64,000 nucleotides of DNA from an uncultured Clostridia bacterium (GTDB lineage: Bacteria; Bacillota; Clostridia; Christensenellales; UBA1242). The notes beneath the pieces are model-generated. The model was not told the origin of the DNA. It made no database searches and saw only the letters and a list, made by a program, of their open reading frames with translations. A program made the translations under genes and the position numbers. The stretch covers positions 1,575 to 65,574 of the forward strand of contig CALVWC010000001.1 of NCBI GenBank assembly GCA_944364445.1, written 5' to 3'. Below, in pieces: positions 1,703-62,115 of the stretch. Each line of letters opens with the position of its first letter. Position 1 is the stretch's first letter.

Positions 1703-3046
1703 TTACATTCTTTTTTTATTTATCACATCCAAACAAAATTCCACGCTTTCTTCCAGCGTTTGATTTGTTGTGTCCACAACAACAGCATCCGGCATTTTTT
1801 TAATTGCACCATGCTCACGATGTATATCTTTATAATCTCTATCTCTAAGTTCTTCCAGCACTTTGTCAAAACTAACATCTTCGCCTCGTGCAAGTTGTTG
1901 ACTATATCGCCTTTTCGCTCGAACCTCCTCATCAGCAGTGATAAAAAATTTGAAGTCGGCATTTGGCAAAACTTCGCTTCCAATGTCACGCCCTTCCATA
2001 ACTGTGTTGTTATTGAAAGCAAACTCGCGCTGAATTTTCAAAACCTTGTCACGAACAGCCATAAACGGCGAAAGTTTAGCAGAAAGCACACTGATTTCAT
2101 CACGCCTTAAGTTGTTTGTGTGGTCGACGCCGTTAACATAAACATGTTGAACATTATTCAAAAACTTAACACTCACCCAAATTTGACTAGCAAAATTTTC
2201 AACATATTTTTCATCAATTTTGCTTTCGTCATATTTAAGATATTTAAATGCGCAAGCAATACCTCGATACACCGCACCTGTGTTGAACACATGAAAATTT
2301 AGCCGTCTTGCAACCTCTTCCGCAATCGTGCTTTTGCCAGAACAAACATAGCCATCAATCGCAATTGAGGTAAATTTTTTTGTTTCCATTTTGCTTTTAA
2401 TAATTTCATAACAGTAATCAATCGTTTCATCTAATGTGATGTACGTGTTGTCAACAATTATGCTGTCTTTCACAGGTTTAAGCGGAGCAACCTCTCTGTG
2501 CGTATCGCGATAATCACGTTCTCTTAAATCTTTCAACACATCGTCAAGGCTAACCTTTTGACCTTTTGCCTTGCTTTCTTCATATCTTCTTTTTGCTCGA
2601 ACACTTTCATCAGCGGTGAGGAAAATTTTAACATCGGCATCAGGCATCACAACCGAACCTATATCACGCCCTTCCATAACGCAATCATATCGCCCAGCAA
2701 AATCTTTTGCCATGGCAAGATACTTTTCTCTAACAAATGGATAAACCGACACTTTTGAAGCAAGTTGGCTTATCTCTTCCGTTCTAAGATATGGCGACAC
2801 ATTTTCTTGATTGACAAACATATTTTGTTTATCATCGATAAACCTTAGTTCAATCGTTTTTGTTTTTAAAAGTTCTTTAAGATCATCCTCTTTAACTTCG
2901 CTTCCGTAAACCGCCTTATATGCATAGGCAATCGCACGAAAAATCGCACCCGTGTCAAGCATCTTGAAGTTAAGCCTTTCACAAAGCCCTTTTGCCAAGG
3001 TTGACTTACCAGAACCCATAAAACCATCTATTGCAACTTTGAACAT
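1703..3046 (-). CDS. cmk: Tandem-fused double cytidylate kinase (two complete Cmk-like domains in one polypeptide)
   Basis: Two P-loops (IDGFMGSGKST and IDGYVCSGKST). Each is followed by the EGRDIGS and RAKRRY segments typical of Cmk. The ATG at 3046 has an AAGAGGTG RBS, and the track start at 3052 is a GTG inside that RBS. Confidence 0.8.
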   Translation of the reverse strand: MFKVAIDGFMGSGKSTLAKGLCERLNFKMLDTGAIFRAIAYAYKAVYGSEVKEDDLKELLKTKTIELRFIDDKQNMFVNQENVSPYLRTEEISQLASKVSVYPFVREKYLAMAKDFAGRYDCVMEGRDIGSVVMPDADVKIFLTADESVRAKRRYEESKAKGQKVSLDDVLKDLRERDYRDTHREVAPLKPVKDSIIVDNTYITLDETIDYCYEIIKSKMETKKFTSIAIDGYVCSGKSTIAEEVARRLNFHVFNTGAVYRGIACAFKYLKYDESKIDEKYVENFASQIWVSVKFLNNVQHVYVNGVDHTNNLRRDEISVLSAKLSPFMAVRDKVLKIQREFAFNNNTVMEGRDIGSEVLPNADFKFFITADEEVRAKRRYSQQLARGEDVSFDKVLEELRDRDYKDIHREHGAIKKMPDAVVVDTTNQTLEESVEFCLDVINKKRM

Positions 3047-3128
3047 ATCCACCTCTTAGAATATTTTACACCATACTTAAAAATTTTCAAACCAAATTAC
3101 AAAGTTTTTTCAAGGTTTATTTGAAAAG

Positions 3129-4801: not shown

Positions 4802-5929
4802 TTAATTCACACAGCCATATTCCGTGAAGCGAACTGTGAATTGCACTCCGCGATAGTCTGTGGCAAAGCGTTGAACTTCTCTACCTACTTCATTAAAGCA
4901 GACAATATTGTTGTAGTTCGAGCCAAGGTCACGCGTAAAATACACATTCGTTCCGCCATAGTATTTAATCATATCTTCCACAAGGTCTGAAAATGTCATA
5001 TTCATATTCCCAATAACAGAGGTTATCTCACTTTGAGAAGAAACAAACATTCTCGCTGTCGTGCTGGCGTTTGTTCCATAAAGCGTGGAACCTGTGCCAA
5101 AGGTTTGAGTGGAAGTTGCACAATTTACAAGATATGTGGTTGATATGCCGTTTCTCATAAAATCGGTCACGCTTTGGTTAGAATACCCTTCGCCTGCGTC
5201 TATTGAACTTGAAGAATATTGCCCAACAAACACAATCTCAGCTAAGACTGCATTAGTGTCCGTGGTTGTGCCATAACCGTCCTTTTGACTTGAAGATGCG
5301 TCTAATCTCCACCTAATCGGCTCAACTTCATACCAGTTGTTATTCCACTTGCAATACTCTTTTCCGTTATACACCTTTGCCGTCAAAGTTTGCCCTGCGA
5401 TATAGTAATTCGCACCATTTGTTGTTGCTTTATTGAGGTTTGATATTAGTGTGGAGTTTGTCACCTTGGTCTGTGGTATTTTGCCATTTTCCACATACCA
5501 ATACTTGCCAGCACTATCATACTTTGCCTCATTATTCACCGTCCACTGAGCATACCAAATATCATCTGCAACAATGGTGTTTAAATTCAAATATTCGCTA
5601 TCCTGAAACATCACTGTGCCAGACCCATCAGCATTTGTTGTGAAAGAACTAAACGAATATCCTGCTCGCTCCGCTCTGACAATTAAAGCCCCCGCAGAAA
5701 CCAAGATTGTGCAATTTTCGCTGTCAAAATAACCAGCACCCGTTTTGTAATAAATTTTATCCCAAATTCCACTGCCACCATTCCAATTTAAAGTTATCTC
5801 ATAAACTCCCACTCGCCAAACGGCGTAAAGCGTCATGCTAGATGTTGGTGTTAAAAAAAATAAAATCTTTCTAATAAATGGTTTATTTAGAGGTTTTATT
5901 ATACTTAAAAATGAAAAATTCTGGTGCAA
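4802..5929 (-). CDS. Cell-surface repeat protein fragment (Listeria-Bacteroides type repeat), probably 5'-truncated
   Basis: AGYSFSSFTTNADGSGT...IWYAQW matches the GYxFxGW...LYAxW repeat. The ORF opens in the middle of a repeat (TLYAVW). It has no signal peptide and no RBS. Confidence 0.5.
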   Translation of the reverse strand: MHQNFSFLSIIKPLNKPFIRKILFFLTPTSSMTLYAVWRVGVYEITLNWNGGSGIWDKIYYKTGAGYFDSENCTILVSAGALIVRAERAGYSFSSFTTNADGSGTVMFQDSEYLNLNTIVADDIWYAQWTVNNEAKYDSAGKYWYVENGKIPQTKVTNSTLISNLNKATTNGANYYIAGQTLTAKVYNGKEYCKWNNNWYEVEPIRWRLDASSSQKDGYGTTTDTNAVLAEIVFVGQYSSSSIDAGEGYSNQSVTDFMRNGISTTYLVNCATSTQTFGTGSTLYGTNASTTARMFVSSQSEITSVIGNMNMTFSDLVEDMIKYYGGTNVYFTRDLGSNYNNIVCFNEVGREVQRFATDYRGVQFTVRFTEYGCVN

Positions 5930-5963: not shown

Positions 5964-6136
5964 TTGCTTTTTGTTTTTTATAGTGCTATAATCATAATGT
6001 GAGGTGAAAAATTTCGTCATACGTAAGAATTATAAATAATGTGTATATATTTTTCCATTCCTTCAAAATATTACATAAATTTCTTTTTAAATTCTTAACA
6101 CCTCACAAAATCACAACTTAGCGTTGTGATTTTTTA
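5964..6136 (+). ncRNA. Orphan promoter-to-terminator unit (candidate small RNA of about 135 nt)
   Basis: TTGCTT (5964-5969), 17 nt, then TATAAT (5987-5992) preceded by TGC. A 5' GUGAGGUG (5999-6006) is complementary to CACCUCAC (6099-6106). Terminator hairpin ATCACAAC/GTTGTGAT (6110-6130) plus T5. No plus-strand gene lies downstream. Confidence 0.35.
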
Positions 6137-6450
6137 ATTTGTAAATCAAACTCTTATCAAAGACATATAATAAAAACCACTGATATATAATAAAAACCAC
6201 TTTTGAAAAGTTGATTAAATAACCATTTTTATTTATTTATATATAAACACAATATGCAGACTTGTTTCCAACAAAATTTACATATAAAATTTTAGCAAAA
6301 ATACGACTTAGGATTGTATCCACTTTTGTAGCCACTTTTTTGACCTAATTTTGACTTTTAGCCGTTTTTTGCCTCTTTTTGCAAATTTTTGTGAGAAATT
6401 AAAAAACGCCCACAAACCTTTATTTATAAGGCTTGTAGGCTTTCGAAAAC

Positions 6451-6535
6451 TGGTGGGCAGGGATGGATTCGAACCATCGAAGACATAGTCGACGGATTTA
6501 CAGTCCGTTGCATTTGGCCGCTCTGCAACCTACCC
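6451..6535 (-). tRNA. tRNA-Tyr (GTA), long variable arm, CCA encoded
   Basis: Hand-folded cloverleaf. Acceptor GGGTAGG/CCTGCCC, anticodon loop CTGTAAA, T-loop TTCGAAT. Confidence 0.9.
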
Positions 6536-6538
6536 AAG

Positions 6539-6613
6539 TGGAGCTGGCGAAAGGAATCGAACCTTCAACCTGCTGATTACAAGTCAGCTGCTCTACCATT
6601 GAGCCACGCCAGC
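6539..6613 (-). tRNA. tRNA-Thr (TGT), CCA encoded
   Basis: Hand-folded. GCTGGCG acceptor, D arm GCTC/GAGC, anticodon loop CTTGTAA, T-loop TTCGATT. Confidence 0.9.
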
Positions 6614-6699
6614 AAACAATTTTTGACAATTAATCTTAATTTATATATTTTAATTAATATATTATTATATACAACTAATTAAGACCATGAAAATTGTTT

Positions 6700-7144
6700 C
6701 TCACACAAAGACTTTCTTGCATACATAAATATGCTGGTGCCCTAAGGTGGACACGACACTACGCTCGAAATTGAACTTTTCCATTCCGCATTTTGCTTTC
6801 GCAAATTGCTTCCATTTCAAATTCAACTTCTCGCTTTTTCCCAAAAATTTTTTAAATTTTCGGGAACCCTTTCTTGTGAAAATCCCTGTGTCTACTTCAT
6901 TTCACACAAAGACTTTCTTGCATATATAAATATGCTGGTGCCCTAAGGTGGAATCGAACCACCGACACTACGCTCGAAATTGAACTTTTCCATTCCGCAT
7001 TTTGCTTTCGCAAATTGCTTCCATTTCAAATTCAACTTCTCGCTTTTTCCCAAAAATTTTTTAAATTTTCGGGAACCCTTTCTTGTGAAAATCCCTGTGT
7101 CTACTTCATTTCACACAAAGACTTTCTTGCATATATAAATATGC
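6700..7144. repeat. Tandem repeat, 2 units (201 and 209 bp) plus the flank of the true tRNA-Phe; each unit carries the 3' part of tRNA-Phe
   Basis: The units starting near 6701 and 6902 are identical by eye, apart from an 8-nt shorter, slightly diverged T-arm copy in the first unit and one C/T difference (6723 vs 6924) in the shared leader. Each unit contains TGGTGCCCTAAGGTGGAATCGAACCACCGACAC, the reverse complement of the tRNA-Phe 3' part. Each also contains an inverted TGAAAATCCCTGTGTC segment. Confidence 0.9.
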
Positions 7145-7220
7145 TGGTGCCCTAAGGTGGAATCGAACCACCGACACAGGGATTTTCAGTCCCTTGCTCT
7201 ACCGACTGAGCTATCAGGGC
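7145..7220 (-). tRNA. tRNA-Phe (GAA), CCA encoded
   Basis: Hand-folded. GCCCTGA acceptor, GCTC/GAGC D stem, anticodon loop CTGAAAA, T-loop TTCGATT. Confidence 0.9.
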
Positions 7221-7223
7221 AAA

Positions 7224-7300
7224 TGGCGACTCGGATGGGGCTCGAACCCACGACCTCTAGCGTGACAGGCTAGCGTTCTAACCAACTGAACTACCGAGCC
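7224..7300 (-). tRNA. tRNA-Asp (GTC), CCA encoded
   Basis: Hand-folded. GGCTCGG acceptor, anticodon loop CTGTCAC, T-loop TTCGAGC. Confidence 0.9.
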
Positions 7301-7371
7301 AAAACTGACATCTATTTGATTTTACCATAATTAAAAAAATATTGCAAGCAAAATGGCATATTTTTTTAATT

Positions 7372-7448
7372 TGGTGGGCCTTCACGGACTCGAACCGCGG
7401 ACCAACCGGTTATGAGCCGGTCGCTCTAACCAACTGAGCTAAAGGCCC
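7372..7448 (-). tRNA. tRNA with CAT anticodon (elongator Met, or Ile2 if lysidine-modified), CCA encoded
   Basis: Hand-folded. GGGCCTT acceptor, anticodon loop CTCATAA. It lacks the three consecutive GC pairs in the anticodon stem expected of an initiator. Confidence 0.85.
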
Positions 7449-7468
7449 AATCAAACTGCAAGCACTGC

Positions 7469-7544
7469 TGGTCGGGGTGGAGGGTCTCGAACCCCCGACC
7501 TCACGGTCCCAAACCGCGCGCTCTACCAACTGAGCCACACCCCG
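7469..7544 (-). tRNA. tRNA-Pro (TGG), CCA encoded
   Basis: Hand-folded. CGGGGTG acceptor, anticodon loop TTTGGGA, T-loop TTCGAGA. Confidence 0.9.
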
Positions 7545-7566
7545 TCTTTTCAGCGCTCGCTAGATT

Positions 7567-7595
7567 ATTTTATGATATCCAGAGAAATTTGTCAA
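7567..7595 (-). promoter_or_regulatory. Sigma-A type promoter of the tRNA operon
   Basis: On the minus strand: TTGACA (7595-7590), 17 nt, TAAAAT (7572-7567). This lies about 22 nt upstream of tRNA-Pro. Confidence 0.75.
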
Positions 7596-7672
7596 GAAAA
7601 AACGCGAAAATTTTTAAAATTTTTTTATTTTTCTCAGCATGGTGAGTTTTAACTAAGCAATTTAAATGAAAC

Positions 7673-8032
7673 CTAGAAAGCGTTTTCAACATGATTAATT
7701 TCATCACCCAAAATTTCAATAACATCAAATCGCACATTGGCATACGGCTTGTGGTTGTAAATGAGATACATTTCCGCCACCCGTCTAATTTTCTGTTGCT
7801 TTCGAAAATCCACCGCCTCAATAGGTCTGCCGAAACTAAGCGTGGAACGCCTTTTAACTTCCACAAACACGATATTACCTCTATCCATAGCAATTAAGTC
7901 GATTTCGCCCAATTTGTTTCGATAGTTAGTGGCAAGAATTTTATACCCCTTCTTCTTAAGAAAGTTAGCCGTTTCAATCTCGCCAATATCACCTTCAATC
8001 TTATTCCTTTCTTTCATAACTTTCCTTATCAA
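7673..8032 (-). CDS. yraN: YraN family (UPF0102) endonuclease-like protein
   Basis: GEIDLIA...VFVEVKRR core typical of UPF0102. Size is 119 aa. Confidence 0.8.
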   Translation of the reverse strand: MIRKVMKERNKIEGDIGEIETANFLKKKGYKILATNYRNKLGEIDLIAMDRGNIVFVEVKRRSTLSFGRPIEAVDFRKQQKIRRVAEMYLIYNHKPYANVRFDVIEILGDEINHVENAF

Positions 8033-8039
8033 AATTTAA

Positions 8040-8849
8040 TTAATCTAAAGTTATTTTTCCAATGCGATTTTTGCGGAAATCATCCACCACCATATATGCC
8101 GTGCGGTCTAGGTCAAGTTCGCCACCCGCTTTCACATATTTTCTAAGAAATGCGATATCTTCCAAATTCTTAGCGTCGCCATAGCGTTTGGAAATTAAAG
8201 AAGGATATTTTTCGTTTAAAATTGAAAGTAAATCTGTGGCAAGCGAAGTAAACTCCAAAACTTCATCACGAACACTGCCAACATACGCGAGCTTCTTGGC
8301 AATTTCTTGACTTTCGATGTTAGGATAAAGCGTTCCGGGAGTGTCGTAGATTTCAATTCCGTCGCCAACATTAAGCCACTGTCCACTCTTCGTCACGCCA
8401 GCCTTGTTGCCCGTGACCGCCTTTGCCTTTTTGCAAAGATTGTTGACAAGCGAACTTTTGCCACTGTTCGGCACACCGACAACCACACATCGAATTGTTG
8501 GCTTGACACCTTTCGCCTTATACTTCTCCACCTTTTTATATGCCAACTTTTTAATCTTGTCTAAGATTAAGGTGTTTTTTGAAAAGTTAGAGTTATATAA
8601 AATGTAGTCCTTATTTTCGCCCTTAAAATTTTCTTTCAAAGCACTAACTCGCTTTTCATCAGCAAGGTCAATCTTATTTAATATGTAAAGCACAGGCTTA
8701 TTTTCAGACAACTCATCAAGTTTTGGATTTAAGGAAGAGAGCGGTATGCGCGCGTCTAAAACATAAAGGACAACATCCACTTTTTTAAGTTCTTCCTTTA
8801 TCTCCTTTAACGCCTTATACATATGCCCAGGAAACCAATTTATCTTCAT
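8040..8849 (-). CDS. rbgA: Ribosome biogenesis GTPase A
   Basis: N-terminus MKINWFPGHMYKA. Circularly permuted GTPase motifs (NKIDL ... GVPNSGKSS ... DTPG). GGAGAGAGT RBS before the ATG at 8849. Confidence 0.9.
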   Translation of the reverse strand: MKINWFPGHMYKALKEIKEELKKVDVVLYVLDARIPLSSLNPKLDELSENKPVLYILNKIDLADEKRVSALKENFKGENKDYILYNSNFSKNTLILDKIKKLAYKKVEKYKAKGVKPTIRCVVVGVPNSGKSSLVNNLCKKAKAVTGNKAGVTKSGQWLNVGDGIEIYDTPGTLYPNIESQEIAKKLAYVGSVRDEVLEFTSLATDLLSILNEKYPSLISKRYGDAKNLEDIAFLRKYVKAGGELDLDRTAYMVVDDFRKNRIGKITLD

Positions 8850-8957
8850 ACTCTCTCCAAAAATTTCCAATTTTCAAAACAAAAGAAAATGTTATAAAAA
8901 TAATAAAAAAATACGAAAAAATAGTAAAAAATTGCTATTTTTTGTTCATTTTTTACT

Positions 8958-9491
8958 TTATAAGTTATTATTATATTTTCCTTCGGTTGCAAGTTTAAGT
9001 GCCTCTTCGGCAGTTTCAGCCTTTTTTAAAGACCATAATGGATTTGTCTCTAATAAATTTAATAATTTTTTGTCATTTGTGCTTTTAGCATAATCATAAA
9101 TGATTTTTCTCAACGCCTTGCTTATCTCAAATATTGTTGAAAAACTTATCGTTTCGGTCAAATTATTTATTTTCATAAAAGTTCCCTTGCTTACACCACA
9201 ATAACGTTCTTCATTACAATAAATTGAATACATATCATATCTTTCTCTTACAACTTTTAAAACATCTCCTTCATCTAATTGAGAATAATAATCTTCATTA
9301 AAAACTGCGAAATTAAATGGACTTTCTTCTTCGATTCTGACGCCAGGCCAATTTCTAGCCACAAAACCTTTTTCATAATCAAATAGATAAATATTAGCAA
9401 ATATGCTGAAACAACCAAATATATCGCAATTTGGATACGTGAAAACAATTTCATCATTTTTAAAATTAAATTGTTGAAATAACTTTTCCAT
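8958..9491 (-). CDS. Hypothetical protein (177 aa), operonic with trmD
   Basis: AGGAG RBS. The start lies 10 nt after the trmD stop. No motif recognised. Confidence 0.6.
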   Translation of the reverse strand: MEKLFQQFNFKNDEIVFTYPNCDIFGCFSIFANIYLFDYEKGFVARNWPGVRIEEESPFNFAVFNEDYYSQLDEGDVLKVVRERYDMYSIYCNEERYCGVSKGTFMKINNLTETISFSTIFEISKALRKIIYDYAKSTNDKKLLNLLETNPLWSLKKAETAEEALKLATEGKYNNNL

Positions 9492-9500
9492 TTTATACTC

Positions 9501-10169
9501 CTAATTCTTTTTTAATAAATCACTTCTTCGCTCTTTTGTACGTTTTAGGCTTTGTTTATTTCTCCACTTTTCCACCTCTTGATGATTACCTGAAAGCAAA
9601 ACCTCTGGAACTTTTATCCCCTCAAAAACGGCTGGTCGCGTGTATTGAGGATACTCCAAAAGCCCATTTGAAAAACTTTCATTTTCCAAACTTTCCTTAC
9701 TAATAACGCCATCAACAAAGCGAGAAAGCGAGTCGATAATCACCATGCTTGGAAGTTCGCCACCTGTCAAAACATAGTCGCCAAGCGAGATTTCTTCAAT
9801 GTCGAAAAGTTCAAAAATGCGTTCGTCCACCCCCTCATAGTGACCGCAAACAAAAATCAAGTGCTCAAAACTAGACAATTCTTTTGCTTTCTTATGGTCA
9901 AATTTCGCTCCACGAGGCGAAGGAAAAATGATTTTGGAATTTTCCTTTTGAACGCTTTTAATGGCATCATAGATTGGTTGCACGCTCATAAGCATACCAG
10001 CACCACCACCGAAAGGATAATCGTCGCATTTCTTGTGCTTATCCTTGGAAAAATCGCGAATATTTATCAGGTTAAATTCCAAGATATGATTATCAACTGC
10101 ACGCTTCAAAATGCTGGAATTTAGTGGCGAAAACATTTCAGGAAACAAGGTTAAAATGTCAATTTTCAT
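9501..10169 (-). CDS. trmD: tRNA (guanine37-N1)-methyltransferase
   Basis: [14 protein letters not shown]-terminus and [11 protein letters not shown] motif. The track ORF is N-terminally over-extended into rimM. Confidence 0.92.
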
Positions 10170-55858: not shown

Positions 55859-55957
55859 ATTTTCTCCCATTATATAAAAGATTTTATCCACTTAAAAAAA
55901 ACTTAAACTATACGAATATTATTTTTTCTTTTGAAGAAACTATCAAAAGGAGGAATT

Positions 55958-57337
55958 ATGAAAGGAAAAATATTTTTAGGAATGTCAGCACTTGTGCTTA
56001 GTTTAGCACTTGCTGGTTGTGGCGGAACCAGTGAGGAAAACGCGGTTAACAACTTGTCTAGTCAACTTGACAAAACCAACAATTCCATTGCAACCGTTCG
56101 AGAGTATTCAGAAACCGACCTTGATTTGACAAAAGAAATGCTTGACAAACTTGCCACAAACGAAAACTGCAAACAAATTCAAAGAAATGTGCAAATTGCT
56201 AAAAATGCACTTATGGCTGAAAATTATTACCGAAACAGTGTGATGAATGAAACAGCAAAAATCAAACATCATCTTTCACGCGGAGATTTAAAACTTGCCA
56301 AAAATCAAGTTTCAGCACTCAAAGATTTATCTGCAAATCTATCAAAATACAATAATAATGTGACTCGTTCCTCAAGCGAATTTAATTCGACATTTAGAAA
56401 TTTCAAAAACTCAAAAAGAAGCGCTCATAAAAATCCAGAAAGAATCAACACGCGTTTAAATAAACTTGCTTGCAATTCCAACGCAAGATGTGCATACTAT
56501 GAAAATCTGTTGAACACTCTTAATCAAGTGGAAGACATACTTGGAATTTACAATAATGAAAAAAACAACAATCAAACAATAAATGAACCTAGCGAAAAAG
56601 AAATAGAAAATGAAAATTCACAAAACTCAACGCAAAATGATAAAATTGAGGAAGAAAACAACAGCGGGCTTATGAAAAATATTGACACATATAAACCTAT
56701 TCAAGACGTGAATAATTCTAATAATGTTAACATTAACAATTTGCCTGCAAACAATAATTTCAATAATATGAATTTTGCAAATAATTATCCTAATAACATT
56801 GCAAACAATCCAAACAACATGATGTATTATCCTGACAATATGATAGGAAGAAGACATGTTTTAAACCCTAACCGCAACACCGACACATATGGTCCAACAA
56901 TAAGAAACATCGACACCTATCGTGCTGATGGAAATTACTATAATAACGGCTTCAACTATGGCTTTAATTCTAATAACTTTAATCGCATGACCATGCCAGT
57001 TGGACCTTTGGAAATGAACAACAATGAAAGCAATATCAACGAAAATAAGCCAACAGAAAATGTGGAAATTGGCAATAACACACAACAAAATTTAAATGAA
57101 AATCTTATTGAAAATGTAAATGGAAATAAAGAAACAATAAAATTAAACGAGGCACAACAAGAAGAAAAATTGGAAGAAAATGTGGAAGGTTTAAAAGATA
57201 TTGCTGAAAAGCGAATTGAAGAGTTTGAAGATGTGTCTAAGGATTTGAAAAACAAAGAAATTAATAAGGACTCATCAATAAAAACCATGGCAAAATCTGA
57301 AAAAGACGACTTAAACAAGAAAACCTCAGCTTATTAA
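55958..57337 (+). CDS. Lipoprotein with a long Asn-rich low-complexity region
   Basis: MKGKIFLGMSALVLSLALAGCGG carries an LAGC lipobox. AAAGGAGG RBS. Central N-rich tracts (NNSNNVNINNLPANNNFNNMNFANNYPNN). Confidence 0.75.
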   Translation: MKGKIFLGMSALVLSLALAGCGGTSEENAVNNLSSQLDKTNNSIATVREYSETDLDLTKEMLDKLATNENCKQIQRNVQIAKNALMAENYYRNSVMNETAKIKHHLSRGDLKLAKNQVSALKDLSANLSKYNNNVTRSSSEFNSTFRNFKNSKRSAHKNPERINTRLNKLACNSNARCAYYENLLNTLNQVEDILGIYNNEKNNNQTINEPSEKEIENENSQNSTQNDKIEEENNSGLMKNIDTYKPIQDVNNSNNVNINNLPANNNFNNMNFANNYPNNIANNPNNMMYYPDNMIGRRHVLNPNRNTDTYGPTIRNIDTYRADGNYYNNGFNYGFNSNNFNRMTMPVGPLEMNNNESNINENKPTENVEIGNNTQQNLNENLIENVNGNKETIKLNEAQQEEKLEENVEGLKDIAEKRIEEFEDVSKDLKNKEINKDSSIKTMAKSEKDDLNKKTSAY

Positions 57338-57465
57338 AAAAACAAAATGCACCTTTTTTACTCCCCCCCCTCCTGCCAAAAAACCTTGTCTACAAAGTTA
57401 TTCCTGTAAACGCATATTGATTTGCAAATAAAATTACTAGTCTATATTTAATAACAATTACAATT

Positions 57466-58404
57466 TCATTCCAAAAAACTTAACTGAAGATCTTTTAAAG
57501 ACTTTACTTCTCTTTCATGAATTTTGTCATCTTTCTCTTTTTCACCAAGCAAAAGTTTAGATGTCTTTATATGCTTTAGGCAATTTGTTTTTACAGATTC
57601 TTTGCTGTAATTAGCATAACAATATACACATCCATGAGAACAAGTATTATATTGCCCTATATCTATACTTTCAACACATCCACAAGATGCTCTTTGGTTT
57701 TTATCTTTGACTGCCTTTATTTTACAATTAATTATTTTAGATATTAAATCGGGGTCAATACAGCATGACCTTTTTATTTCTAAATCAATCAAATCGATAT
57801 CTTCACTGCAGGTTTTTAATTTAATTCTATTTTTATCAGCAATTGGCTTCAATTTTTGTGAGATTTCAACCATTAGGTCACGAGTTATATCTTTAATTGC
57901 TAATTTTAATAAATTATTCTTATTTTTTTCATAAACATCCAAAAAACTAAACACGCAAGTGGTTGTGTAATCTTTTAATTTATTTGCAATATATTCAAAT
58001 CTTTTAATATGCCATTCTAAATTATATTTTGGCGTTATTATGATTGGATCATATCTCCATATAACTCTTTCTTTGCCATATCTTTTAGCCAAATATATAA
58101 AATTATTTAAGCGTTCGTCTAAAGATGGTAGATTTGGTTCCAAATCTTTTTCATAGGCGTTTATTGTATATTGAAAATAAAATTTATATTTGCTTTCAAT
58201 TTCATCTAAATATTTGAACATTGGTTGCGGATTTTTACTCCAAAAAACGATACAGTCCACAACATTAGGCGCCAAACTAATTTGGCTTATGCTATGGTAA
58301 TTCATTGGGTTCCTTACCCAAACAACTTCTTCTCTTAAACGATTGATAAACCAGTCGCTATAAAAAGCAGGTATATCTGTTCTTCGGCTTACACTTAATA
58401 TCAT
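57466..58404 (-). CDS. DUF1848 family protein with a C-terminal CX3CX2C (radical-SAM-type) cysteine motif
   Basis: The N-terminus MILSVSRRTDIPAFYSDWF is the DUF1848 hallmark as I recall it. The C-terminus carries SCGC...NTCSHGCVYCYAN. GAGGT RBS overlaps the end of the upstream gene. Confidence 0.8.
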   Translation of the reverse strand: MILSVSRRTDIPAFYSDWFINRLREEVVWVRNPMNYHSISQISLAPNVVDCIVFWSKNPQPMFKYLDEIESKYKFYFQYTINAYEKDLEPNLPSLDERLNNFIYLAKRYGKERVIWRYDPIIITPKYNLEWHIKRFEYIANKLKDYTTTCVFSFLDVYEKNKNNLLKLAIKDITRDLMVEISQKLKPIADKNRIKLKTCSEDIDLIDLEIKRSCCIDPDLISKIINCKIKAVKDKNQRASCGCVESIDIGQYNTCSHGCVYCYANYSKESVKTNCLKHIKTSKLLLGEKEKDDKIHEREVKSLKDLQLSFLE

Positions 58405-58408
58405 ATTA

Positions 58409-59623
58409 TTACCTCATCACTTTAACTTGCGTATGTAGTTCGCATATAATTTTGTTTTTTGCAATAATTTTTGCTTGTTTTACTACTATAAATTCACCTC
58501 GATTTATATCTATTTGATTAAGTCCACTTGTTAAAAATATTGCTTTAGGTATTTCCAACCAAATATCTTTCCTTTCACATAACGACCCATCACAAATTTT
58601 AAGAGCAATCTTTGTCTGTTTGATTGATGAAGAAAGAATGAATGCTTTAAATGAAATATTTTCACCAATATGATTTTCTATACTATTTAGCATAATTTTA
58701 TTTTCAAATGATTGATATTTTTTTAGTTCATCATTTCTTAACACTGCATATTCAAAATAATGATAAGGTTTTAAGTTGCGAAATTCGTCTATACTTCTTA
58801 ATTCTTGAATTATCTTCGACTTTCCAATATAAGTTTTTGCGGTTGCAAATTGTTTACAAACATCAGCATCGCAACAACAAGGACTAAATGAGTTGAAAGA
58901 TAATTGATTTAGTTTTTGTTTTATCTTTTTTAAATAATTTACGACATTTTCATCTGCTGGCTCTATAAAGATTATTGATGAATGATTGTTTAGATTATTA
59001 GAATAAAGTTTAATTAAATTATCTATAACCTTTTGTGAGATTTTCTCATTATGATTTAACATATTGCTTTCAATTATAATATCATATTTATCACTTATCC
59101 CTATATCACCATTTAAGTCAACATTTATCCATTTCATCTTTATACTTAAATTCTTTGGGAAAGTAGGTTTATAATTTTCAAAAATTATATTAAATATTTT
59201 TATAAACTCTTTTTCCTTTTCAAGTAAACAAAAATCAATTTCAAATTTTAATTGGGAATTATCGGCTGCTAAAATTTTAAAAAACTCTATCATCCCAAAG
59301 GTGCAAGAACCTGGACCTACGCCAAGTTCTAGAATATTAAACTTTTCATGTATTAAATTATATTTTAATAAATCCATTAGAGGTTGCCAAACTTTATAAA
59401 AATTAACAGGTAGATAATAAAGCGTGTATTCTCTATGGTTTTGTGTGTAATCAGTTTTTGTTTCGCCATAAAATAAATTTGCTATCCTTTTTGCCAAACT
59501 TGTTTTGTTTTTTATTTCATGTAATTTGTCTACATCAAACAAGTTTATAATAGATTGTTCTATTATATTTGGAATCTCAGGTTGTCCTTCATAAGTTTGG
59601 ATTATTTTATCATATTTCATCAT
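58409..59623 (-). CDS. Class I SAM-dependent methyltransferase-like protein (Rsm22-like) with a Cys cluster and a beta-rich C-terminal domain
   Basis: ILELGVGPGSCTF is motif I. YLPVNFYKVW upstream of it and SPCCCDADVC downstream resemble the Rsm22 family layout. The start overlaps the upstream ORF by 11-14 nt. Confidence 0.65.
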   Translation of the reverse strand: MMKYDKIIQTYEGQPEIPNIIEQSIINLFDVDKLHEIKNKTSLAKRIANLFYGETKTDYTQNHREYTLYYLPVNFYKVWQPLMDLLKYNLIHEKFNILELGVGPGSCTFGMIEFFKILAADNSQLKFEIDFCLLEKEKEFIKIFNIIFENYKPTFPKNLSIKMKWINVDLNGDIGISDKYDIIIESNMLNHNEKISQKVIDNLIKLYSNNLNNHSSIIFIEPADENVVNYLKKIKQKLNQLSFNSFSPCCCDADVCKQFATAKTYIGKSKIIQELRSIDEFRNLKPYHYFEYAVLRNDELKKYQSFENKIMLNSIENHIGENISFKAFILSSSIKQTKIALKICDGSLCERKDIWLEIPKAIFLTSGLNQIDINRGEFIVVKQAKIIAKNKIICELHTQVKVMR

Positions 59624-61211
59624 TTATCCTTTTTATTAAAATTTGAGCCTTGTTGTAACAAGTATCTTTATTTGGTATAGTTTTTAACACTTCTAGGGCG
59701 AGTTCTTTTTTATTTTGCAAACAATATAGAACACCTTGCTCATAAAGCATATAATTTTTTGCCTTAAAGAAATTTTTATGGCATTCATCATAACGTTTTA
59801 AAAAGTGTAAGTTTATTGCCTCTGTCAACTTAACAAAATCAGGAAATAAAAACTTTTCGTGCACTATTCTTTCTTTTGCTAAATCTAAAACTTTTTTTAC
59901 ATAATCATTAGATAATTCAAAAAAACTTTTTGCTTTATCTTCTTTTTCTCCCTTTAAAAGATAGACCAAACCTTTTATCTGTTCCACTTGAGACAGCCTA
60001 TAATAAACATCAAAATAACCAGGTTTAACTTTTAGGTCTATGTTTTTGTTGTCTTGGTTATATTTGCGAAGTTCTATAATCTTGTTTAAGTAAGATTCAA
60101 TTTTTGGTATGCTTTCTAATCTTTCTTTTTTAAACAAAATTTCTTTAATTGGTTTTCCAAAAATTTTATTATCAACATATGCGTCATAATAATTCAAAAG
60201 ATTTTCTATATTGAATTTTGAATAGCTAAACAATGCTCCAATATATTCCTTTTTATACTTTATTTGTCTATCTTCGGATAGCGATTCATATTCGTTAATT
60301 AATAGAGAATAGTTTTTGACAATTTCATTTACGCTATTTATCCACTCTTTACCGCCTTTCCATTTTATAAGTTCAAAGTTAATTTCTTTCAATTTTGTAT
60401 ATCGATATAACTCCTTATATTTTTCATAAGAACAATTTATAAGTTCAGTGTAAAGTTTTTCCGCTTTTTCATAGTAGCCTTTTTTATTGTTGTGTTCAGC
60501 CATAAAAACAACATAATAATGATAAGCAAGAATGCTTTTATGAACGCAATTGTTAGGTTCTAGTTCAATACATCTATTAATTACTTTAAAAAAGAATTGT
60601 TCAACTTTTTCTTTCTCGTTATAGTTTAGTTTTTTATAACCGGGTTCAACAATTTTTGATAGCGCATAAGCTAGTTCATTTAAACAAAAAACATTATTCC
60701 AAAATTCATGTTGTTCAATATTTTCTTCATTCGGAAATTTATCAACAATCTCTTGCCATTTATGTCTTGCTTTTAAATCGGCAATAACATTCATAAAAGT
60801 TTTATACTTTACTTCATTTGAGTTTCCTTTTATGTTTATATAAGATTGATAATCTTTTATTAAAACAATAAATGGAGATAATTCGTTTTTACCTATTATC
60901 CCTTGTTTGTAAAGATACGAAAATATCCTTTTACTAATATACTTGCAATCCTCTGACAAACTCTCTATATTTTCATATTCAATTTTAATATAATCATCAT
61001 CGATATAATATTGTTTACACTTACAAACCTTTGCAAATTGTCTCTCATCTTCCTTTTTCAACGAGCAAATTAAAATTTCTTCAATAATATCCTTATTAAG
61101 TGTTTTTAGGTCTGGAAAAGATTTTGTAATATTTTCAAAATAATCCCCCTTACAAAGATAATACTCATTATCCTGACTTATACAGAAGTTATCAAAAATT
61201 ATTAAAAACAT
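59610..61211 (-). CDS. Hypothetical 533-aa helical-repeat (TPR-like) protein, first gene of the three-gene operon
   Basis: GGAG RBS 6 nt before the ATG at 61211. The sequence is rich in Y/K/E/N with amphipathic helix pairs. No catalytic motif recognised. Confidence 0.6.
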   Translation of the reverse strand: MFLIIFDNFCISQDNEYYLCKGDYFENITKSFPDLKTLNKDIIEEILICSLKKEDERQFAKVCKCKQYYIDDDYIKIEYENIESLSEDCKYISKRIFSYLYKQGIIGKNELSPFIVLIKDYQSYINIKGNSNEVKYKTFMNVIADLKARHKWQEIVDKFPNEENIEQHEFWNNVFCLNELAYALSKIVEPGYKKLNYNEKEKVEQFFFKVINRCIELEPNNCVHKSILAYHYYVVFMAEHNNKKGYYEKAEKLYTELINCSYEKYKELYRYTKLKEINFELIKWKGGKEWINSVNEIVKNYSLLINEYESLSEDRQIKYKKEYIGALFSYSKFNIENLLNYYDAYVDNKIFGKPIKEILFKKERLESIPKIESYLNKIIELRKYNQDNKNIDLKVKPGYFDVYYRLSQVEQIKGLVYLLKGEKEDKAKSFFELSNDYVKKVLDLAKERIVHEKFLFPDFVKLTEAINLHFLKRYDECHKNFFKAKNYMLYEQGVLYCLQNKKELALEVLKTIPNKDTCYNKAQILIKRINDEI

Positions 61212-61229
61212 ACACATCTCCGTTAGCCT

Positions 61230-61238
61230 ATTATAGCA
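61230..61238 (-). promoter_or_regulatory. Extended -10 promoter (TGCTATAAT) of the three-gene operon
   Basis: The minus strand reads TGC-TATAAT, ending about 18 nt upstream of the ATG at 61211. No good -35 element. Confidence 0.5.
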
Positions 61239-61499
61239 TATATCTTTAAAAAATGATCAGTTTTCTGCCAAATAATTAAAATTTTACTATACTATTTCAA
61301 AAAAATGACTTTATAAATTCAAAATAAAGTTATTTTAGTTTTTTCTAGTTTCACAAATTACTGATATTGGTCTGTAATTTTTCAAACTAATTAAAAAGGA
61401 GTTTCGCTAATAAAAAGGATAACGCCTTTTATTGTTTATTCTGCTAGTTTCAGATATCACTAACCTTAAGGTGTATTTTTATGTTTTAAAAGGTTAAAA

Positions 61500-61530
61500 A
61501 AATAAAAAATCCAAAGAAAACTCTTTGGAT
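61500..61530 (-). terminator. Intrinsic terminator after the acidic zinc-ribbon gene
   Basis: ATCCAAAG/CTTTGGAT stem with a 6-nt loop, followed by a U-rich run on the minus strand. Confidence 0.8.
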
Positions 61531-61536
61531 TAAATT

Positions 61537-62055
61537 TTAAAAGTCGTCGTCATCATCGTCAGAATCATCATCTTCCTCGTCTTCGTCATCGTCATCATCA
61601 AAATCGTCGTCTAAATCATCCTCATCGTCGATGTCTTCATCGTCGAATTCTTCGTCAAGGTCAATATCGTCGTCGATGGTGTCGTCAAAGCCAATTTCCG
61701 TGTCGATATCATCATCTAAAATATCGCCGTCAGTTAAATCGGTGACGGAAGCCATATCGCCAGTCTCCTCATCCTCATCAATGATTTCATCCTCATCTCG
61801 ATTGAGATATTCTTCCCAATCAGAGTTGATTTCGCCATCTTCACTCTGATGCTCTTTAAGGCAAGTTGCACACATAATTTCGTCTGGCGAAATATAGTTG
61901 GTTTTGCAAATTGGGCAAAGTTCAAGGTCAAGGTCGCTGGTGTACTCATCTTTCTTTGCTGAAAGTTCCGCCTTGCAAACACTGCAAAGTTTATCCTTTT
62001 TTTCAATGTAGTTAAGTTCGCATCTAGGGCATCTAATATAAACAGGTTTTTTCAT
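61537..62055 (-). CDS. Double zinc-ribbon protein with a poly-acidic tail of about 95 aa
   Basis: CPRC...CSVC and CPIC...CATC pairs, then a nearly pure D/E tail ending DDDSDDDDDDF. GAAGGAGA RBS. Confidence 0.75.
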   Translation of the reverse strand: MKKPVYIRCPRCELNYIEKKDKLCSVCKAELSAKKDEYTSDLDLELCPICKTNYISPDEIMCATCLKEHQSEDGEINSDWEEYLNRDEDEIIDEDEETGDMASVTDLTDGDILDDDIDTEIGFDDTIDDDIDLDEEFDDEDIDDEDDLDDDFDDDDDEDEEDDDSDDDDDDF

Positions 62056-62115
62056 AAAATCTCCTTCCGATTTCGCTTTATATTCTACATATTATAAATG
62101 CTATTGTCAACTAAT

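What the first reader, a model, noticed from the sequence alone, without database searches (positions are those of the whole stretch)
6700..7220. Near-perfect 209-bp tandem repeat carrying tRNA-Phe 3' halves and an inverted anticodon-arm fragment, embedded inside a tRNA operon
**Seen in the sequence**
- Two extra units lie between tRNA-Phe (7145-7220) and tRNA-Thr (6539-6613), starting near 6701 and 6902.
- Each unit repeats the 30-nt leader TCACACAAAGACTTTCTTGCATATATAAAT. It then repeats the last 33 nt or so of tRNA-Phe (variable loop, T arm, acceptor 3' strand, CCA). About 170 nt of unrelated, hairpin-rich sequence follows.
- The hairpins include TTCCCAAAAATTT/AAATTTTCGGGAA and GCATTTTGC-TTTC-GCAAATTGC.
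- The two long units look identical by eye. The exceptions are an 8-nt shorter, slightly diverged T arm in the distal copy and one C/T difference (6723 vs 6924) in the shared leader. This suggests the duplication is recent.
- Each unit also contains TGAAAATCCCTGTGTC in the opposite orientation. That is a 16-nt copy of the tRNA-Phe anticodon-loop/variable region.
- A transcript read through from the operon promoter (7567-7595) would therefore carry a 16-nt segment antisense to tRNA-Phe, plus a free-standing T-arm/acceptor/CCA half.

**Inference**
- Duplicated tRNA 3' ends are the classic scar of integrative elements using a tRNA attB. Here, however, the repeated unit is only about 200 bp and has no integrase.
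- Alternatives are a degenerate att-site array left by repeated integration and excision, a tRNA-derived small RNA family, or an assembly collapse or expansion artefact.
Basis: seen in the sequence. Interest (0 to 1): 0.6.

Follow-up and report, generated by a model that had tools for sequence, protein, structure and literature searches.

The report
tRNA-Phe-derived structured repeat inside tRNA operon
Between two tRNA genes of an uncultured gut Clostridium lies a duplicated 209-base module built from direct and inverted copies of the end of tRNA-Phe; it resembles the old and poorly understood rtT repeats behind E. coli tRNA-Tyr rather than a scar left by a mobile element.

Summary
TRF finds a 209-bp period with 2.3 copies at 6701-7177, and two copies are 100% identical. 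Each unit carries the last 33 nt of tRNA-Phe and a 16-nt perfect inverted copy of tRNA positions 33-48.

I do not read it as an integration scar. No recombinase is encoded in the 64-kb window. The unit has no match in the phage or plasmid collections, and only chance 17-mer matches among viral contigs. Related strains carry one unit, or one unit plus a diverged second unit. Another species (L116/L121) has homologous units at the same Phe-to-Thr/Tyr spacer.

The strand transcribed with the tRNAs folds far better (-73 kcal/mol, z -8.8) than its complement (-43 kcal/mol, z -4.0). Hairpins keep their pairing through compensatory changes. The antisense 16-mer follows a tRNA-Phe base-pair change in that other species.

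The closest known thing is the E. coli tyrT/tyrV 178-bp repeat (rtT/RttR RNA). I checked that it has the same build: copies of the tRNA 3' end plus an inverted tRNA segment. Rfam shows no homology between the two.

Best reading: a locally generated, vertically inherited, co-transcribed structured spacer RNA array. Its copy number drifts by unequal recombination. Its function is untested.

The parts
7567..7595 (-). Promoter-like site of the tRNA operon (TTGACA-17-TAAAAT)
   Evidence: Consensus scan, 11 of 12 matches. Consensus match only.
7145..7220 (-). tRNA-Phe(GAA) with encoded CCA. Its last 33 nt (7145-7177) are repeat copy A1.
   Evidence: ARAGORN. Rfam tRNA 71.4 bits.
7129..7144 (-). hp1 of unit 1: GCAUAU-UUAU-AUAUGC, directly after the CCA. 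It is the centre of the quasi-palindrome formed by the tRNA 3' half and its inverted copy.
   Evidence: MFE fold. Compensatory U-A to C-G change with a U.G intermediate among strains, and C-G to U-A in L121.
7087..7126 (-). hp2 of unit 1: 14-bp stem GAAAGUCUUUGUGU / ACACAGGGAUUUUC with three G.U pairs. The 3' arm is the antisense segment.
   Evidence: MFE fold, RNAalifold.
7086..7101 (-). 16-nt segment GACACAGGGAUUUUCA (operon strand). It is a perfect complement of tRNA-Phe positions 33-48: anticodon loop, 3' strand of the anticodon stem, variable loop.
   Evidence: Inverted repeat I5, 100%. Invariant in all strain copies. Changes G to A together with the tRNA in L116/L121.
7047..7075 (-). hp3 of unit 1: 13-bp stem UUCCCGAAAAUUU / AAAUUUUUGGGAA
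   Evidence: MFE. The stem GGGUUCCCGAAAA...UUUUUGGG is conserved in L121/L116 with a different loop.
6971..7043 (-). hp4 of unit 1: long bipartite hairpin with outer stem GAAGUUGAAUUU/AAGUUCAAUUUC, two 9-nt internal loops, and inner stem GCAAUUUGC-GAAA-GCAAAAUGC.
   Evidence: MFE. Compensatory changes in L097 and L121.
6936..6968 (-). A2: intact second copy of tRNA-Phe positions 44-76 (T arm, acceptor 3' strand, CCA). It folds as a minihelix, GUGUC/GGCAC plus the T arm.
   Evidence: Exact 33-nt sense match, fold.
6760..6935 (-). Second copy of leader plus B. hp1 at 6920-6935, antisense 16-mer at 6877-6892, hp3 at 6838-6866, hp4 at 6762-6834.
   Evidence: 100% identical to 6969-7144.
6735..6759 (-). 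A3: older, degenerate copy of the tRNA 3' piece (GTGTCGTGTCCACCTTAGGGCACCA). The 5' strand and loop of the T arm are deleted.
   Evidence: Alignment. The same deletion is present in the one-unit strains L001, L002, L095 and L101. The piece is intact in L094. L097 has a variant deletion.
6701..6734 (-). Leader (hp1 plus 5' arm of hp2) of a third, diverged unit (u2). The rest of u2 (~170 nt) is deleted in this strain; the junction is near 6693-6700.
   Evidence: L095 and L097 keep the full u2, including its own perfect 16-mer.
6664..6693 (-). Promoter-like site upstream of tRNA-Thr (TTTTCA-18-TATAAT)
   Evidence: Consensus scan only.
6451..6613 (-). tRNA-Thr(UGU) 6539-6613 and tRNA-Tyr(GUA) 6451-6535, the distal genes of the operon.
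   Evidence: ARAGORN, Rfam.
6408..6440 (-). Intrinsic-terminator-like hairpin plus T run after tRNA-Tyr. No terminator is predicted inside the array, so read-through of the array is expected.
   Evidence: Terminator scan.

Best explanation
**What it is**
- The array is a locally generated, vertically inherited module derived from tRNA-Phe. It sits in the Phe-to-Thr spacer of a tRNA operon.
- It is an analogue, not a homologue, of the 178-bp repeats behind E. coli tyrT/tyrV that give rtT (RttR) RNA.

**Anatomy of one unit, on the operon strand**
- A small palindromic hairpin (hp1) directly after the CCA.
- A degenerate inverted copy of the tRNA 3' half, whose outer 16 nt remain a perfect complement of tRNA positions 33-48.
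- Two conserved hairpins (hp3 and hp4).
- A direct copy of tRNA positions 44-76 ending in CCA.

**Origin (inferred)**
- The order sense, inverted, sense is what template switching or snap-back at short palindromes produces (tandem inversion duplication, inverted triplication).
- Asymmetric deletions and insertions would then have reshaped it.

**Dynamics (shown by comparison)**
- The array expands, contracts and is homogenised by unequal recombination and gene conversion between the 67-nt tRNA-end-plus-leader repeats.
- The window's perfect 209-bp duplication is one recent expansion.

**How it works (inferred)**
- The array is read through from the operon promoter.
- The tRNA-like 3' minihelix with CCA gives tRNA-end processing enzymes (RNase P on its 5' side, 3' trimming at CCA) sites to cut the spacer into discrete, highly structured RNAs of about 176-209 nt.
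- These cuts would also leave tRNA-Phe with a short trailer.
- hp2 sequesters the antisense 16-mer so that tRNA-Phe can fold. The 16-mer may also pair with precursor or mature tRNA-Phe.
For: **Repeat**
- Repeat confirmed.
- Copy number varies among strains: one unit in L001, L002, L094 and L101; one unit plus a diverged u2 in L095 and L097; two units in the window.

**Vertical inheritance**
- The same architecture is found at the same spacer in another species. L116 and L121 have two unit types in swapped order, as expected from recombination inside an array.
- The 3' part of the window unit is closer to L121 alpha (0.74) than to its own neighbour u2 (0.63). The 5' parts are homogenised within each lineage.

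**Structure on the operon strand**
- The operon strand folds at -73.3 kcal/mol (z -8.8). The other strand folds at -42.6 (z -4.0).
- The same 20-30 kcal/mol asymmetry appears in four units, with 22 versus 7 G.U pairs.
- RNAalifold finds 10 of 61 pairs with compensatory double changes.
- In L121/L116 the unit's 5' antisense part (GCGAA) and its own 3' tRNA piece (TTCGC) changed together, away from the tRNA's GGTGG/CCACC. This keeps a closing helix of about 25 bp with a CACCA tail.

**Antisense 16-mer**
- It is invariant in all copies of the window clade.
- It is GACACAAGGATTTTC in L116/L121, where the tRNA has A28-U42 instead of G28-C42.

**Simpler versions elsewhere**
- Six further species have a shorter form: a hairpin made of an antisense and a sense copy of the tRNA-Phe 3' strand.

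**E. coli comparison, checked directly**
- 178-bp period, 3.1 copies, immediately after tyrV.
- Each unit ends in the tRNA-Tyr 3' end and carries a 22-nt, 86% inverted copy of the T arm/acceptor 64-67 nt downstream.
- That inverted copy pairs with the unit's 3' end and leaves a CACCACCA tail.
- rtT RNA is reported as released from the tyrT transcript (Bosl and Kersten 1991, as cited in PMC3318445 and PMC4986893).

**Context**
- No terminator is predicted inside the array.
- No recombinase is present and the surroundings are housekeeping genes.
Against: - No expression or processing data exist. Transcription through the array and cleavage at the minihelix are inferences.
- The strains are closely related, so most pairs never vary. 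Covariation rests on a few lineages (mainly L097 and L121).
- Concerted evolution of repeats can mimic compensatory change.
- The tracking of the tRNA by the 16-mer rests on a single informative substitution.
- The window unit lacks the long closing helix seen in L121/L116 and in rtT, so its structure is not uniform across the family.
- The function of the E. coli comparator is itself poorly defined.
- Rfam gives no RtT hit, so 'rtT-like' is an analogy of build only.
- The direct repeats of a tRNA 3' end could originally have come from an integrase event. L114/L122 have a perfect 23-nt copy starting in the T loop.
Confidence: 0.6

Rival explanations
1. Integration scar or att-site accretion. 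A tyrosine integrase that targets the T-loop region of tRNA-Phe inserted one or more elements, each bringing a new tRNA 3' end. Internal deletions left about 140 nt of element ends between att copies, as in a CIME-like array, and later integrations or recombination duplicated them.
For: - Direct repeats of a tRNA 3' end are the classic signature. The block starts 5 nt before the T stem.
- L114/L122 have a perfect 23-nt copy starting in the T loop.
- tRNA-targeting elements are active in this very population. L091, 99.97% identical to the window, has foreign DNA abutting the tRNA-Tyr 3' half from the anticodon loop.
- The middle copy A2 is identical to A1 over its whole length. Simple A1 x A3 unequal crossover explains this only if the exchange fell in the first 6 nt.
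Against: - No integrase, excisionase or transposase among the window ORFs scanned.
- No match to the unit in phages or plasmids. Among viral contigs there are only chance 17-mer hits.
- The unit interior is orthologous across species at one locus.
- The last unit is followed by the same leader rather than by a different 'native' trailer.
- The model does not explain the inverted tRNA copy, the strand-specific fold or the compensatory changes.
- L004, which at first looked like a full element, is the same unit with an internal deletion and a more degenerate distal tRNA piece.
Confidence: 0.12
2. Neutral by-product. The array is an unstable quasi-palindrome created by replication template switching next to a hairpin-rich tRNA gene. 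It persists and changes copy number without any function. Palindrome-directed correction and gene conversion from the selected tRNA gene keep the 16-mer perfect, and conversion between repeats mimics covariation.
For: - The sense-inverted-sense layout centred on a small palindrome fits the inverted triplication and tandem inversion duplication models (PMC4689423 and Kugelberg 2010 cited there) and quasi-palindrome template switching (PMC7202029).
- The 5' parts of units are homogenised within each genome.
- The Phe-to-Thr spacer differs greatly among species.
- The window strain has already lost most of u2.
Against: - The fold is strongly strand-asymmetric after control for composition: z -8.8 versus -4.0. 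DNA-level conversion does not predict this.
- Hairpins hp3 and hp4, which have no tRNA template to copy from, are conserved between species with compensatory changes.
- The 16-mer in second units lies about 250 nt from the tRNA and has different flanks, yet stays perfect.
Confidence: 0.2
3. Assembly artefact. The second perfect copy is a mis-traversed loop in a short-read assembly graph, and the real genome has one unit.
For: - The two copies are 100% identical and longer than usual k-mers.
- The only other two-copy contig (L003) is 100% identical to the window and comes from the same sample as L092.
- Several contigs of other samples end inside or just before the array.
Against: - The sequence B-end / intact tRNA piece / A1-type leader / B-start can only exist if two units are adjacent. 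In one-unit strains B is followed by the deleted A3.
- L005, from a different strain and sample, also runs from B into an intact tRNA piece before its contig ends.
- Even if the copy number were wrong, the unit, its older distal copy and its relatives in other species remain.
Confidence: 0.08

Closest known systems
E. coli tyrT/tyrV 3'-distal 178-bp repeats encoding rtT (RttR) RNA (Rfam RtT, RF00391)
   Same: - It lies immediately 3' of a tRNA gene in the same operon.
- It is a tandem array of units about 180-210 bp long: 178 bp x 3.1 versus 209 bp x 2.3.
- Each unit ends with a copy of the tRNA 3' end including CCA.
- Each unit also holds an inverted copy of part of the tRNA about 65-70 nt after the tRNA end.
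- The unit RNA is hairpin-rich.
- All of these were checked on NC_000913.3.
- rtT is described as released from the tyrT primary transcript during tRNA processing (PMC4986893, PMC3318445).
   Different: - There is no sequence or structure homology: no RtT hit at E <= 1.
- The phylum differs (Bacillota versus Pseudomonadota) and so does the tRNA (Phe versus Tyr).
- In E. coli the perfect part of the inverted copy pairs with the unit's own 3' tRNA piece. Here the perfect 16-mer is complementary to tRNA positions 33-48, of which only 5 nt are present in the unit's own tRNA piece.
- There is no conserved small ORF like tpr. The 17-codon ORF in the unit is broken in L097.
- The array here lies between tRNA genes rather than at the end of the operon.
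tRNA-gene att-site scars and accretion arrays of integrative elements (attL/attR repeats; CIME-type elements without recombination genes)
   Same: - Direct repeats of the 3' part of a tRNA gene.
- The functional tRNA is kept at one end and a degenerate copy sits at the other.
- Tandem arrangement.
   Different: - No recombinase is present and the unit is not found in any mobile-element collection.
- The interior is conserved at one chromosomal locus across species.
- The unit contains an inverted tRNA copy and strand-specific RNA-like structure.
Tandem inversion duplications and inverted triplications formed by template switching at short inverted repeats (Kugelberg et al. 2010; ODIRA model, PMC4689423)
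   Same: - The copies are ordered sense, inverted, sense.
- A short palindrome (hp1) lies at the inversion junction.
- Later asymmetric deletions are evident.
   Different: - Those events span kilobases and are transient under selection.
- This one spans tens of bases of a tRNA gene, has been kept across species, and has acquired conserved extra hairpins.
- The comparison is an inference about origin only and was not tested.
Functional RNAs cut from tRNA-operon spacers, such as the 3' external transcribed spacer of glyW-cysT-leuZ acting as an sRNA sponge (from my own knowledge), and the T-box leader as an RNA that reads a tRNA anticodon
   Same: - A spacer of a tRNA transcript could be a functional RNA.
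- The 16-mer contains the Phe codon UUC followed by A, so it is complementary to the anticodon loop.
   Different: - No T-box family hit.
- The complementarity is 16 nt contiguous rather than a codon plus an NCCA-binding bulge.
- No downstream coding gene is controlled.
- No sRNA partner is known.

Membership tests
rtT-type tRNA-operon repeat (E. coli tyrT/tyrV 178-bp repeats, RttR RNA) | Tandem repeat starting directly after a tRNA gene, on the same strand and in the same transcription unit | tested here: met
   The array at 6701-7177 abuts tRNA-Phe. One promoter-like site lies upstream and no terminator is predicted inside. E. coli was verified.
rtT-type tRNA-operon repeat (E. coli tyrT/tyrV 178-bp repeats, RttR RNA) | Each unit ends with a copy of the tRNA 3' end including CCA | tested here: met
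   33-nt copy at 6936-6968 and a degenerate copy at 6735-6759. E. coli has a 19-nt copy.
rtT-type tRNA-operon repeat (E. coli tyrT/tyrV 178-bp repeats, RttR RNA) | Unit contains an inverted copy of a tRNA segment that pairs with the unit's tRNA-like 3' end (closing helix with an NCCA tail) | tested here: inconclusive
   An inverted copy is present. A closing helix is predicted in the L121/L116 homologues and in rtT. In the window unit the MFE prefers the local hairpin hp2, at -16.7 kcal/mol, over the alternative duplex with the tRNA piece at -20.0 kcal/mol.
rtT-type tRNA-operon repeat (E. coli tyrT/tyrV 178-bp repeats, RttR RNA) | Sequence and structure homology to Rfam RtT (RF00391) | tested here: not met
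   cmscan of 6300-7700 at E <= 1 lists no RtT match. The resemblance is therefore one of architecture, not family membership.
rtT-type tRNA-operon repeat (E. coli tyrT/tyrV 178-bp repeats, RttR RNA) | A stable RNA is released from the primary transcript by processing | not testable with these tools
   No expression data are available.
tRNA att-site scar or CIME-type accretion array | Direct repeats of the tRNA 3' part flanking the inserted DNA | tested here: met
   Three copies of the tRNA end plus leader.
tRNA att-site scar or CIME-type accretion array | A cognate integrase-bearing element, in the locus or elsewhere, shares the inserted sequence | tested here: not met
   No recombinase domains in the window. 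No hits in phages or plasmids. Viral contigs gave no hit or chance hits only. The first JGI metagenome scan was empty. Complete genomes of the species could not be searched.
tRNA att-site scar or CIME-type accretion array | Presence/absence polymorphism with an empty site bounded exactly by the repeat | tested here: not met
   All 10 contigs of the species that reach the spacer carry at least one unit. More distant species have different short hairpin spacers, not an empty site.
T-box riboswitch | Stem I with specifier loop, a T-box antiterminator sequence and a downstream regulated gene | tested here: not met
   No T-box hit in Rfam. tRNA genes, not a coding gene, lie downstream.
Assembly artefact | No read-level or sequence-level support for a unit-to-unit junction | tested here: inconclusive
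   The junction sequence is distinct from one-unit strains. The only other two-copy contig is from the same strain. Reads are not available.

The most novel reading that the evidence does not exclude
The unit RNA is an 'anti-tRNA' encoded inside the tRNA's own operon.
- Its 16-nt segment pairs with the anticodon loop, the 3' strand of the anticodon stem and the variable loop of precursor or mature tRNA-Phe.
- hp2 acts as a built-in mask for that segment.
- The array, and its copy number, would then tune folding, processing or availability of tRNA-Phe.
- The same logic might lie behind the unexplained rtT repeats of E. coli.
Probability: 0.2. Interest if true: 0.8.

Novelty: new variant of a known kind. 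Interest (0 to 1): 0.5.

Why it matters
- Repeats carrying tRNA 3' ends are routinely read as integration scars. This case shows a second source: modules made locally from direct and inverted tRNA pieces that behave like conserved structured RNAs.
- It gives the decades-old E. coli tyrT/rtT oddity an independent counterpart in Clostridia. That makes a shared principle testable, namely tRNA-end-tagged spacer RNAs cut out by tRNA processing enzymes.
- If the perfect, co-varying complementarity to the tRNA-Phe anticodon arm is functional, it would be a new kind of tRNA-directed regulatory RNA.
- If it is not functional, the locus is still a clean natural example of inverted-triplication mutagenesis and array dynamics beside a tRNA gene.
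- It is also a warning for annotation of tRNA 'att' sites in metagenome-assembled genomes.

Tried and rejected
**Searches that found nothing useful**
- BLAST of the spacer against phage and plasmid collections gave no match.
- Viral-contig scans gave nothing for a 31-nt piece of the unit spanning the antisense 16-mer and the start of hp3 or for the tRNA-Phe 3' end. The 17-mer gave five hits that are coding sequence or an ordinary tRNA-Phe, so chance.
- The first metagenome scan, with the hp2 motif, was empty.
- The GTDB scan with YraN gave relatives only up to 70% identity. None of the 20 closest scanned has tRNAs beside yraN, so synteny gave no comparison.
- A 46-nt piece of the unit occurs nowhere else in the window.

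**Readings considered and dropped**
- L004 looked like a strain carrying a full-length element, because the unit breaks off after 112 nt into an unrelated convergent gene. Alignment showed an internal deletion plus a more degenerate distal tRNA piece. The foreign gene is a membrane protein with no recombinase features.
- L003 cannot serve as independent support for two copies, because it is 100% identical to the window.
- Coding potential: the only ORF in the unit (17 codons, MEAICESKMRNGKVQFRA) is truncated in L097, so it is not a tpr-like gene.
- T-box, tmRNA and YrlA readings: only sub-threshold noise in Rfam.
- Simple unequal crossover between A1 and A3 as the source of the duplication does not fit well. 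The middle copy is A1-type throughout, so the exchange would have had to fall in 6 nt. Recombination within a longer ancestral array, or conversion, fits better.
- IS200/IS605-type hairpin elements, integron attC sites and IS110 bridge RNA were considered from memory only. No transposase or integrase is present, there are no other copies, and no defining motif was seen.
Full report
**1. Observation**

The window carries a tRNA operon on the minus strand: Pro, Met, Asp, Phe, then Thr and Tyr. A promoter-like site lies at 7595-7567 and a terminator-like hairpin after tRNA-Tyr at 6440-6408. No terminator is predicted in between.

Between tRNA-Phe (7145-7220) and tRNA-Thr (6539-6613), TRF finds a 209-bp period with 2.3 copies at 6701-7177. 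Positions 6754-6962 and 6963-7171 are 100% identical.

Read on the operon strand the layout is tRNA-Phe, whose last 33 nt I call A1; then leader plus B (176 nt); A2 (an intact 33-nt copy); leader plus B again; A3 (a 25-nt degenerate copy); and a 34-nt leader.

B contains GACACAGGGATTTTCA, a perfect complement of tRNA-Phe positions 33-48 (I4/I5).

**2. Context and organism**

Every ORF I scanned is housekeeping. These include ffh, rpsP, rimM, trmD, rbgA, yraN, EF-Tu/G/Ts/P, IF-2, nusA, ileS and sporulation genes. None has a recombinase or transposase domain.

The nearest species representatives by YraN are uncultured Clostridia and Christensenellales-like gut MAGs at about 70% identity. The host is therefore an uncultured gut Clostridium.

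**3. Strain comparison**

Contigs encoding the identical or a 96%-identical YraN reach the spacer in ten cases.
- L001 and L002, about 95-96% identical to the window, have one unit followed by the same degenerate A3.
- L094 has one unit with an intact distal tRNA piece.
- L095 and L097 have one unit, the degenerate piece, and then a second, diverged unit (u2). This u2 has its own perfect 16-mer and about 150 nt of different sequence before tRNA-Thr. The window strain has deleted most of u2, leaving the leader at 6701-6734.
- L004 has a unit with an internal deletion and a still more degenerate distal piece.
- L003 and L092 are 100% identical to the window. They come from the same strain, so the two-copy state has no independent confirmation.

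The array is therefore old and dynamic. The perfect duplication is a recent event layered on top of it. The unit-to-unit junction sequence differs from anything in one-unit strains, so at least two units are real. The exact number cannot be fixed from a short-read assembly.

**4. Not a mobile element, as far as can be tested**

The spacer has no match in the phage or plasmid collections. A 31-nt piece of the unit and the tRNA end are absent from viral contigs, and a 17-mer gave only chance hits. No other copy exists in the window.

**5. Other species**

A metagenome scan for the tRNA-Phe 3' end returned 14 loci from other species with the same operon. Their tRNA-Phe has A28-U42 where the window has G28-C42.

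Two of them, L116 and L121, carry homologous units of about 205-221 nt. The parts correspond as follows:
- an hp1-like palindrome (GTATAC-GAAA-GTATAC);
- an antisense segment at the same distance from the tRNA (+46 versus +44);
- the same hp3 stem (GGGTTCCCGAAAA...TTTTTGGG);
- conserved AGCGAGAA and TTTCGAGCG motifs;
- an hp4 of different sequence but the same shape;
- a degenerate tRNA 3' piece starting at the same position, 44.

Their antisense segment reads GACACAAGGATTTTC. It carries the change that matches their tRNA.

The two contigs have the two unit types in opposite order, and the last unit in L116 is a chimera. This is what recombination inside a longer array would produce.

The 3' part of the window unit is closer to L121 alpha (0.74) than to u2 of its own lineage (0.63). 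The 5' parts are homogenised within lineages. That indicates vertical descent with concerted evolution.

L124 has a 13-nt complement of tRNA positions 26-38 at +56.

Six further species have short spacers that fold into a hairpin. Its 3' strand is a partly degenerate copy of the tRNA T-arm/acceptor 3' strand, and its 5' strand is the complement.

**6. Structure**

The unit on the operon strand folds at -73.3 kcal/mol, z -8.8. It forms hp1, hp2, hp3, hp4 and a T-arm minihelix. The complement folds at only -42.6 kcal/mol, z -4.0.

The same 20-30 kcal/mol asymmetry holds for L097, L121 alpha and L116 beta. Across the four units there are 22 G.U pairs on the operon strand against 7 on the other.

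Compensatory changes are seen in several places:
- hp1 changes U-A to C-G, with a U.G intermediate, and C-G to U-A in L121.
- The inner stem of hp4 changes A-U to G-C.
- The outer stem of hp4 is rebuilt in L121.
- Overall, 10 of 61 consensus pairs show a double change.

In L121 and L116 the 5' part of the unit (CCUAAGCGAAGAGAACGAGCAGACAC) pairs with the unit's own 3' tRNA piece. Both sides carry a matched departure from the tRNA sequence: GCGAA/UUCGC instead of GGUGG/CCACC. A CACCA tail is left single-stranded.

These features point to constraint on a single-stranded nucleic acid of the operon strand, most simply the transcript. The sample of lineages is small, and repeats evolve in concert, so this evidence is suggestive rather than conclusive.

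**7. Anatomy re-read**

The leader after hp1 is a degenerate inverted copy of the tRNA 3' half, with hp1 at the centre of symmetry. In silico the precursor (tRNA plus 65 nt) can form either of two structures that are nearly isoenergetic:
- cloverleaf plus hp1 plus hp2, at -52.3 kcal/mol;
- one long fold-back, at -52.9 kcal/mol.

The whole unit is thus sense tRNA half, inverted half, inserted hairpins, sense half. This is the order produced by template switching at short palindromes (tandem inversion duplication, inverted triplication; PMC4689423 and Kugelberg 2010 cited there; PMC7202029). That origin is my inference and was not tested.

**8. Closest known**

The E. coli tyrT/tyrV locus has the same build. 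I checked the following on NC_000913.3:
- a 178-bp period with 3.1 copies, starting right after tyrV;
- each unit ends in the tRNA-Tyr 3' end;
- each unit has a 22-nt, 86% inverted copy of the T arm/acceptor 64-67 nt downstream;
- its perfect 10 nt pair with the unit's 3' end, leaving CACCACCA free.

One unit is annotated as the small RNA RttR (rtT). The literature describes it as released from the tyrT transcript and linked to the stringent and stress responses, with its mode of action unknown (PMC3318445, PMC4986893, PMC2965389, bioRxiv 10.1101/2024.07.17.603846, all citing Bosl and Kersten 1991, which I could not read).

Rfam finds no RtT match in the window. The relation is therefore one of architecture, not family membership.

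**9. What remains unexplained**

The repeated tRNA pieces start at position 44. The antisense to positions 33-43 therefore has no exact partner inside the unit. Yet it is perfect in every copy seen and follows the tRNA in the other species.

There are two candidate explanations:
- pairing with precursor or mature tRNA-Phe is selected, with hp2 acting as a mask;
- palindrome-directed correction keeps copying from the tRNA gene.

Only one informative substitution is available, so I cannot decide between them.

**10. Verdict**

The att-scar interpretation is not supported. The best reading is an rtT-like, locally generated, co-transcribed structured spacer array that changes copy number by recombination (confidence 0.6).

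Rivals are a neutral template-switch by-product (0.2), an integration scar (0.12) and an artefact affecting the second copy only (0.08).

Novelty: a new variant of a known but poorly understood kind. Interest 0.5. If the anti-tRNA reading were true (probability about 0.2) it would deserve about 0.8.

Noticed in passing
window 6451-6535 (tRNA-Tyr) and 6120-6450; L091:1-547; L092:1: tRNA-Tyr looks like a live integration site. L091, 99.97% identical to the window downstream, has unrelated DNA abutting the tRNA-Tyr 3' half exactly from the anticodon loop. A contig of the window's own sample (L092) starts at that same base (window 6504). The motif AAGTGGCTACAA(A/C)AGTGGATACAA occurs both in the foreign end of L091 and downstream of tRNA-Tyr in the window (6314-6337). 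Direct repeats AGTGGTTTTTATTATAT lie near 6165-6205 and could be arm-type sites.
   Followed up: partly
window 8460-9534: About 1.1 kb holding a 177-aa ORF (8958-9491) with no Pfam or PADLOC hit sits between trmD and rbgA. It is absent from the ~95-96%-identical strains L001, L002, L004, L005 and L094, so it is a strain-specific insertion in a conserved ribosome-biogenesis gene row.
   Followed up: partly
window 55900-62100: A low-GC stretch (27-31% against about 36% elsewhere). It holds a DUF1848 protein (57466-58404) that hits the PADLOC model RTasDUF1848 (E 6e-53). Next to it are 404-aa and 535-aa ORFs and a divergent 468-aa ORF, none with a family match. This may be a defence or other accessory islet. 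No reverse transcriptase was found.
   Followed up: partly
L119 (reverse strand, directly after tRNA-Phe): Another species has an unrelated tandem repeat of about 170 nt starting right after tRNA-Phe. Its arms AATGGAAAATC / GATTTTCCATT again resemble the anticodon-loop region and its complement.
   Followed up: no
L123 (reverse strand, after tRNA-Thr); L114/L122 after tRNA-Phe: L123 has a partial 3' copy of tRNA-Thr about 200 nt after the gene. L114/L122 have a perfect 23-nt copy of the tRNA-Phe end starting in the T loop, 83 nt after the gene. Both look more like classic att-type scars than the window array does.
   Followed up: no
L125 (E. coli NC_000913.3 1286700-1287330): Each 178-bp tyrT/tyrV repeat unit carries a 22-nt, 86% inverted copy of the tRNA-Tyr T arm/acceptor. 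It also shares the short strings TCGAGCGCC and AGCGAGA with the L121 unit. The shared strings are probably chance, since about 0.15 and 2.4 such matches are expected.
   Followed up: partly
window 4802-5836 and 1703-3052: A 344-aa protein next to the operon has no family hit and is strain-variable. The cmk gene encodes a fusion of a cytidylate kinase domain with a second cytidylate-kinase-like domain (449 aa).
   Followed up: no
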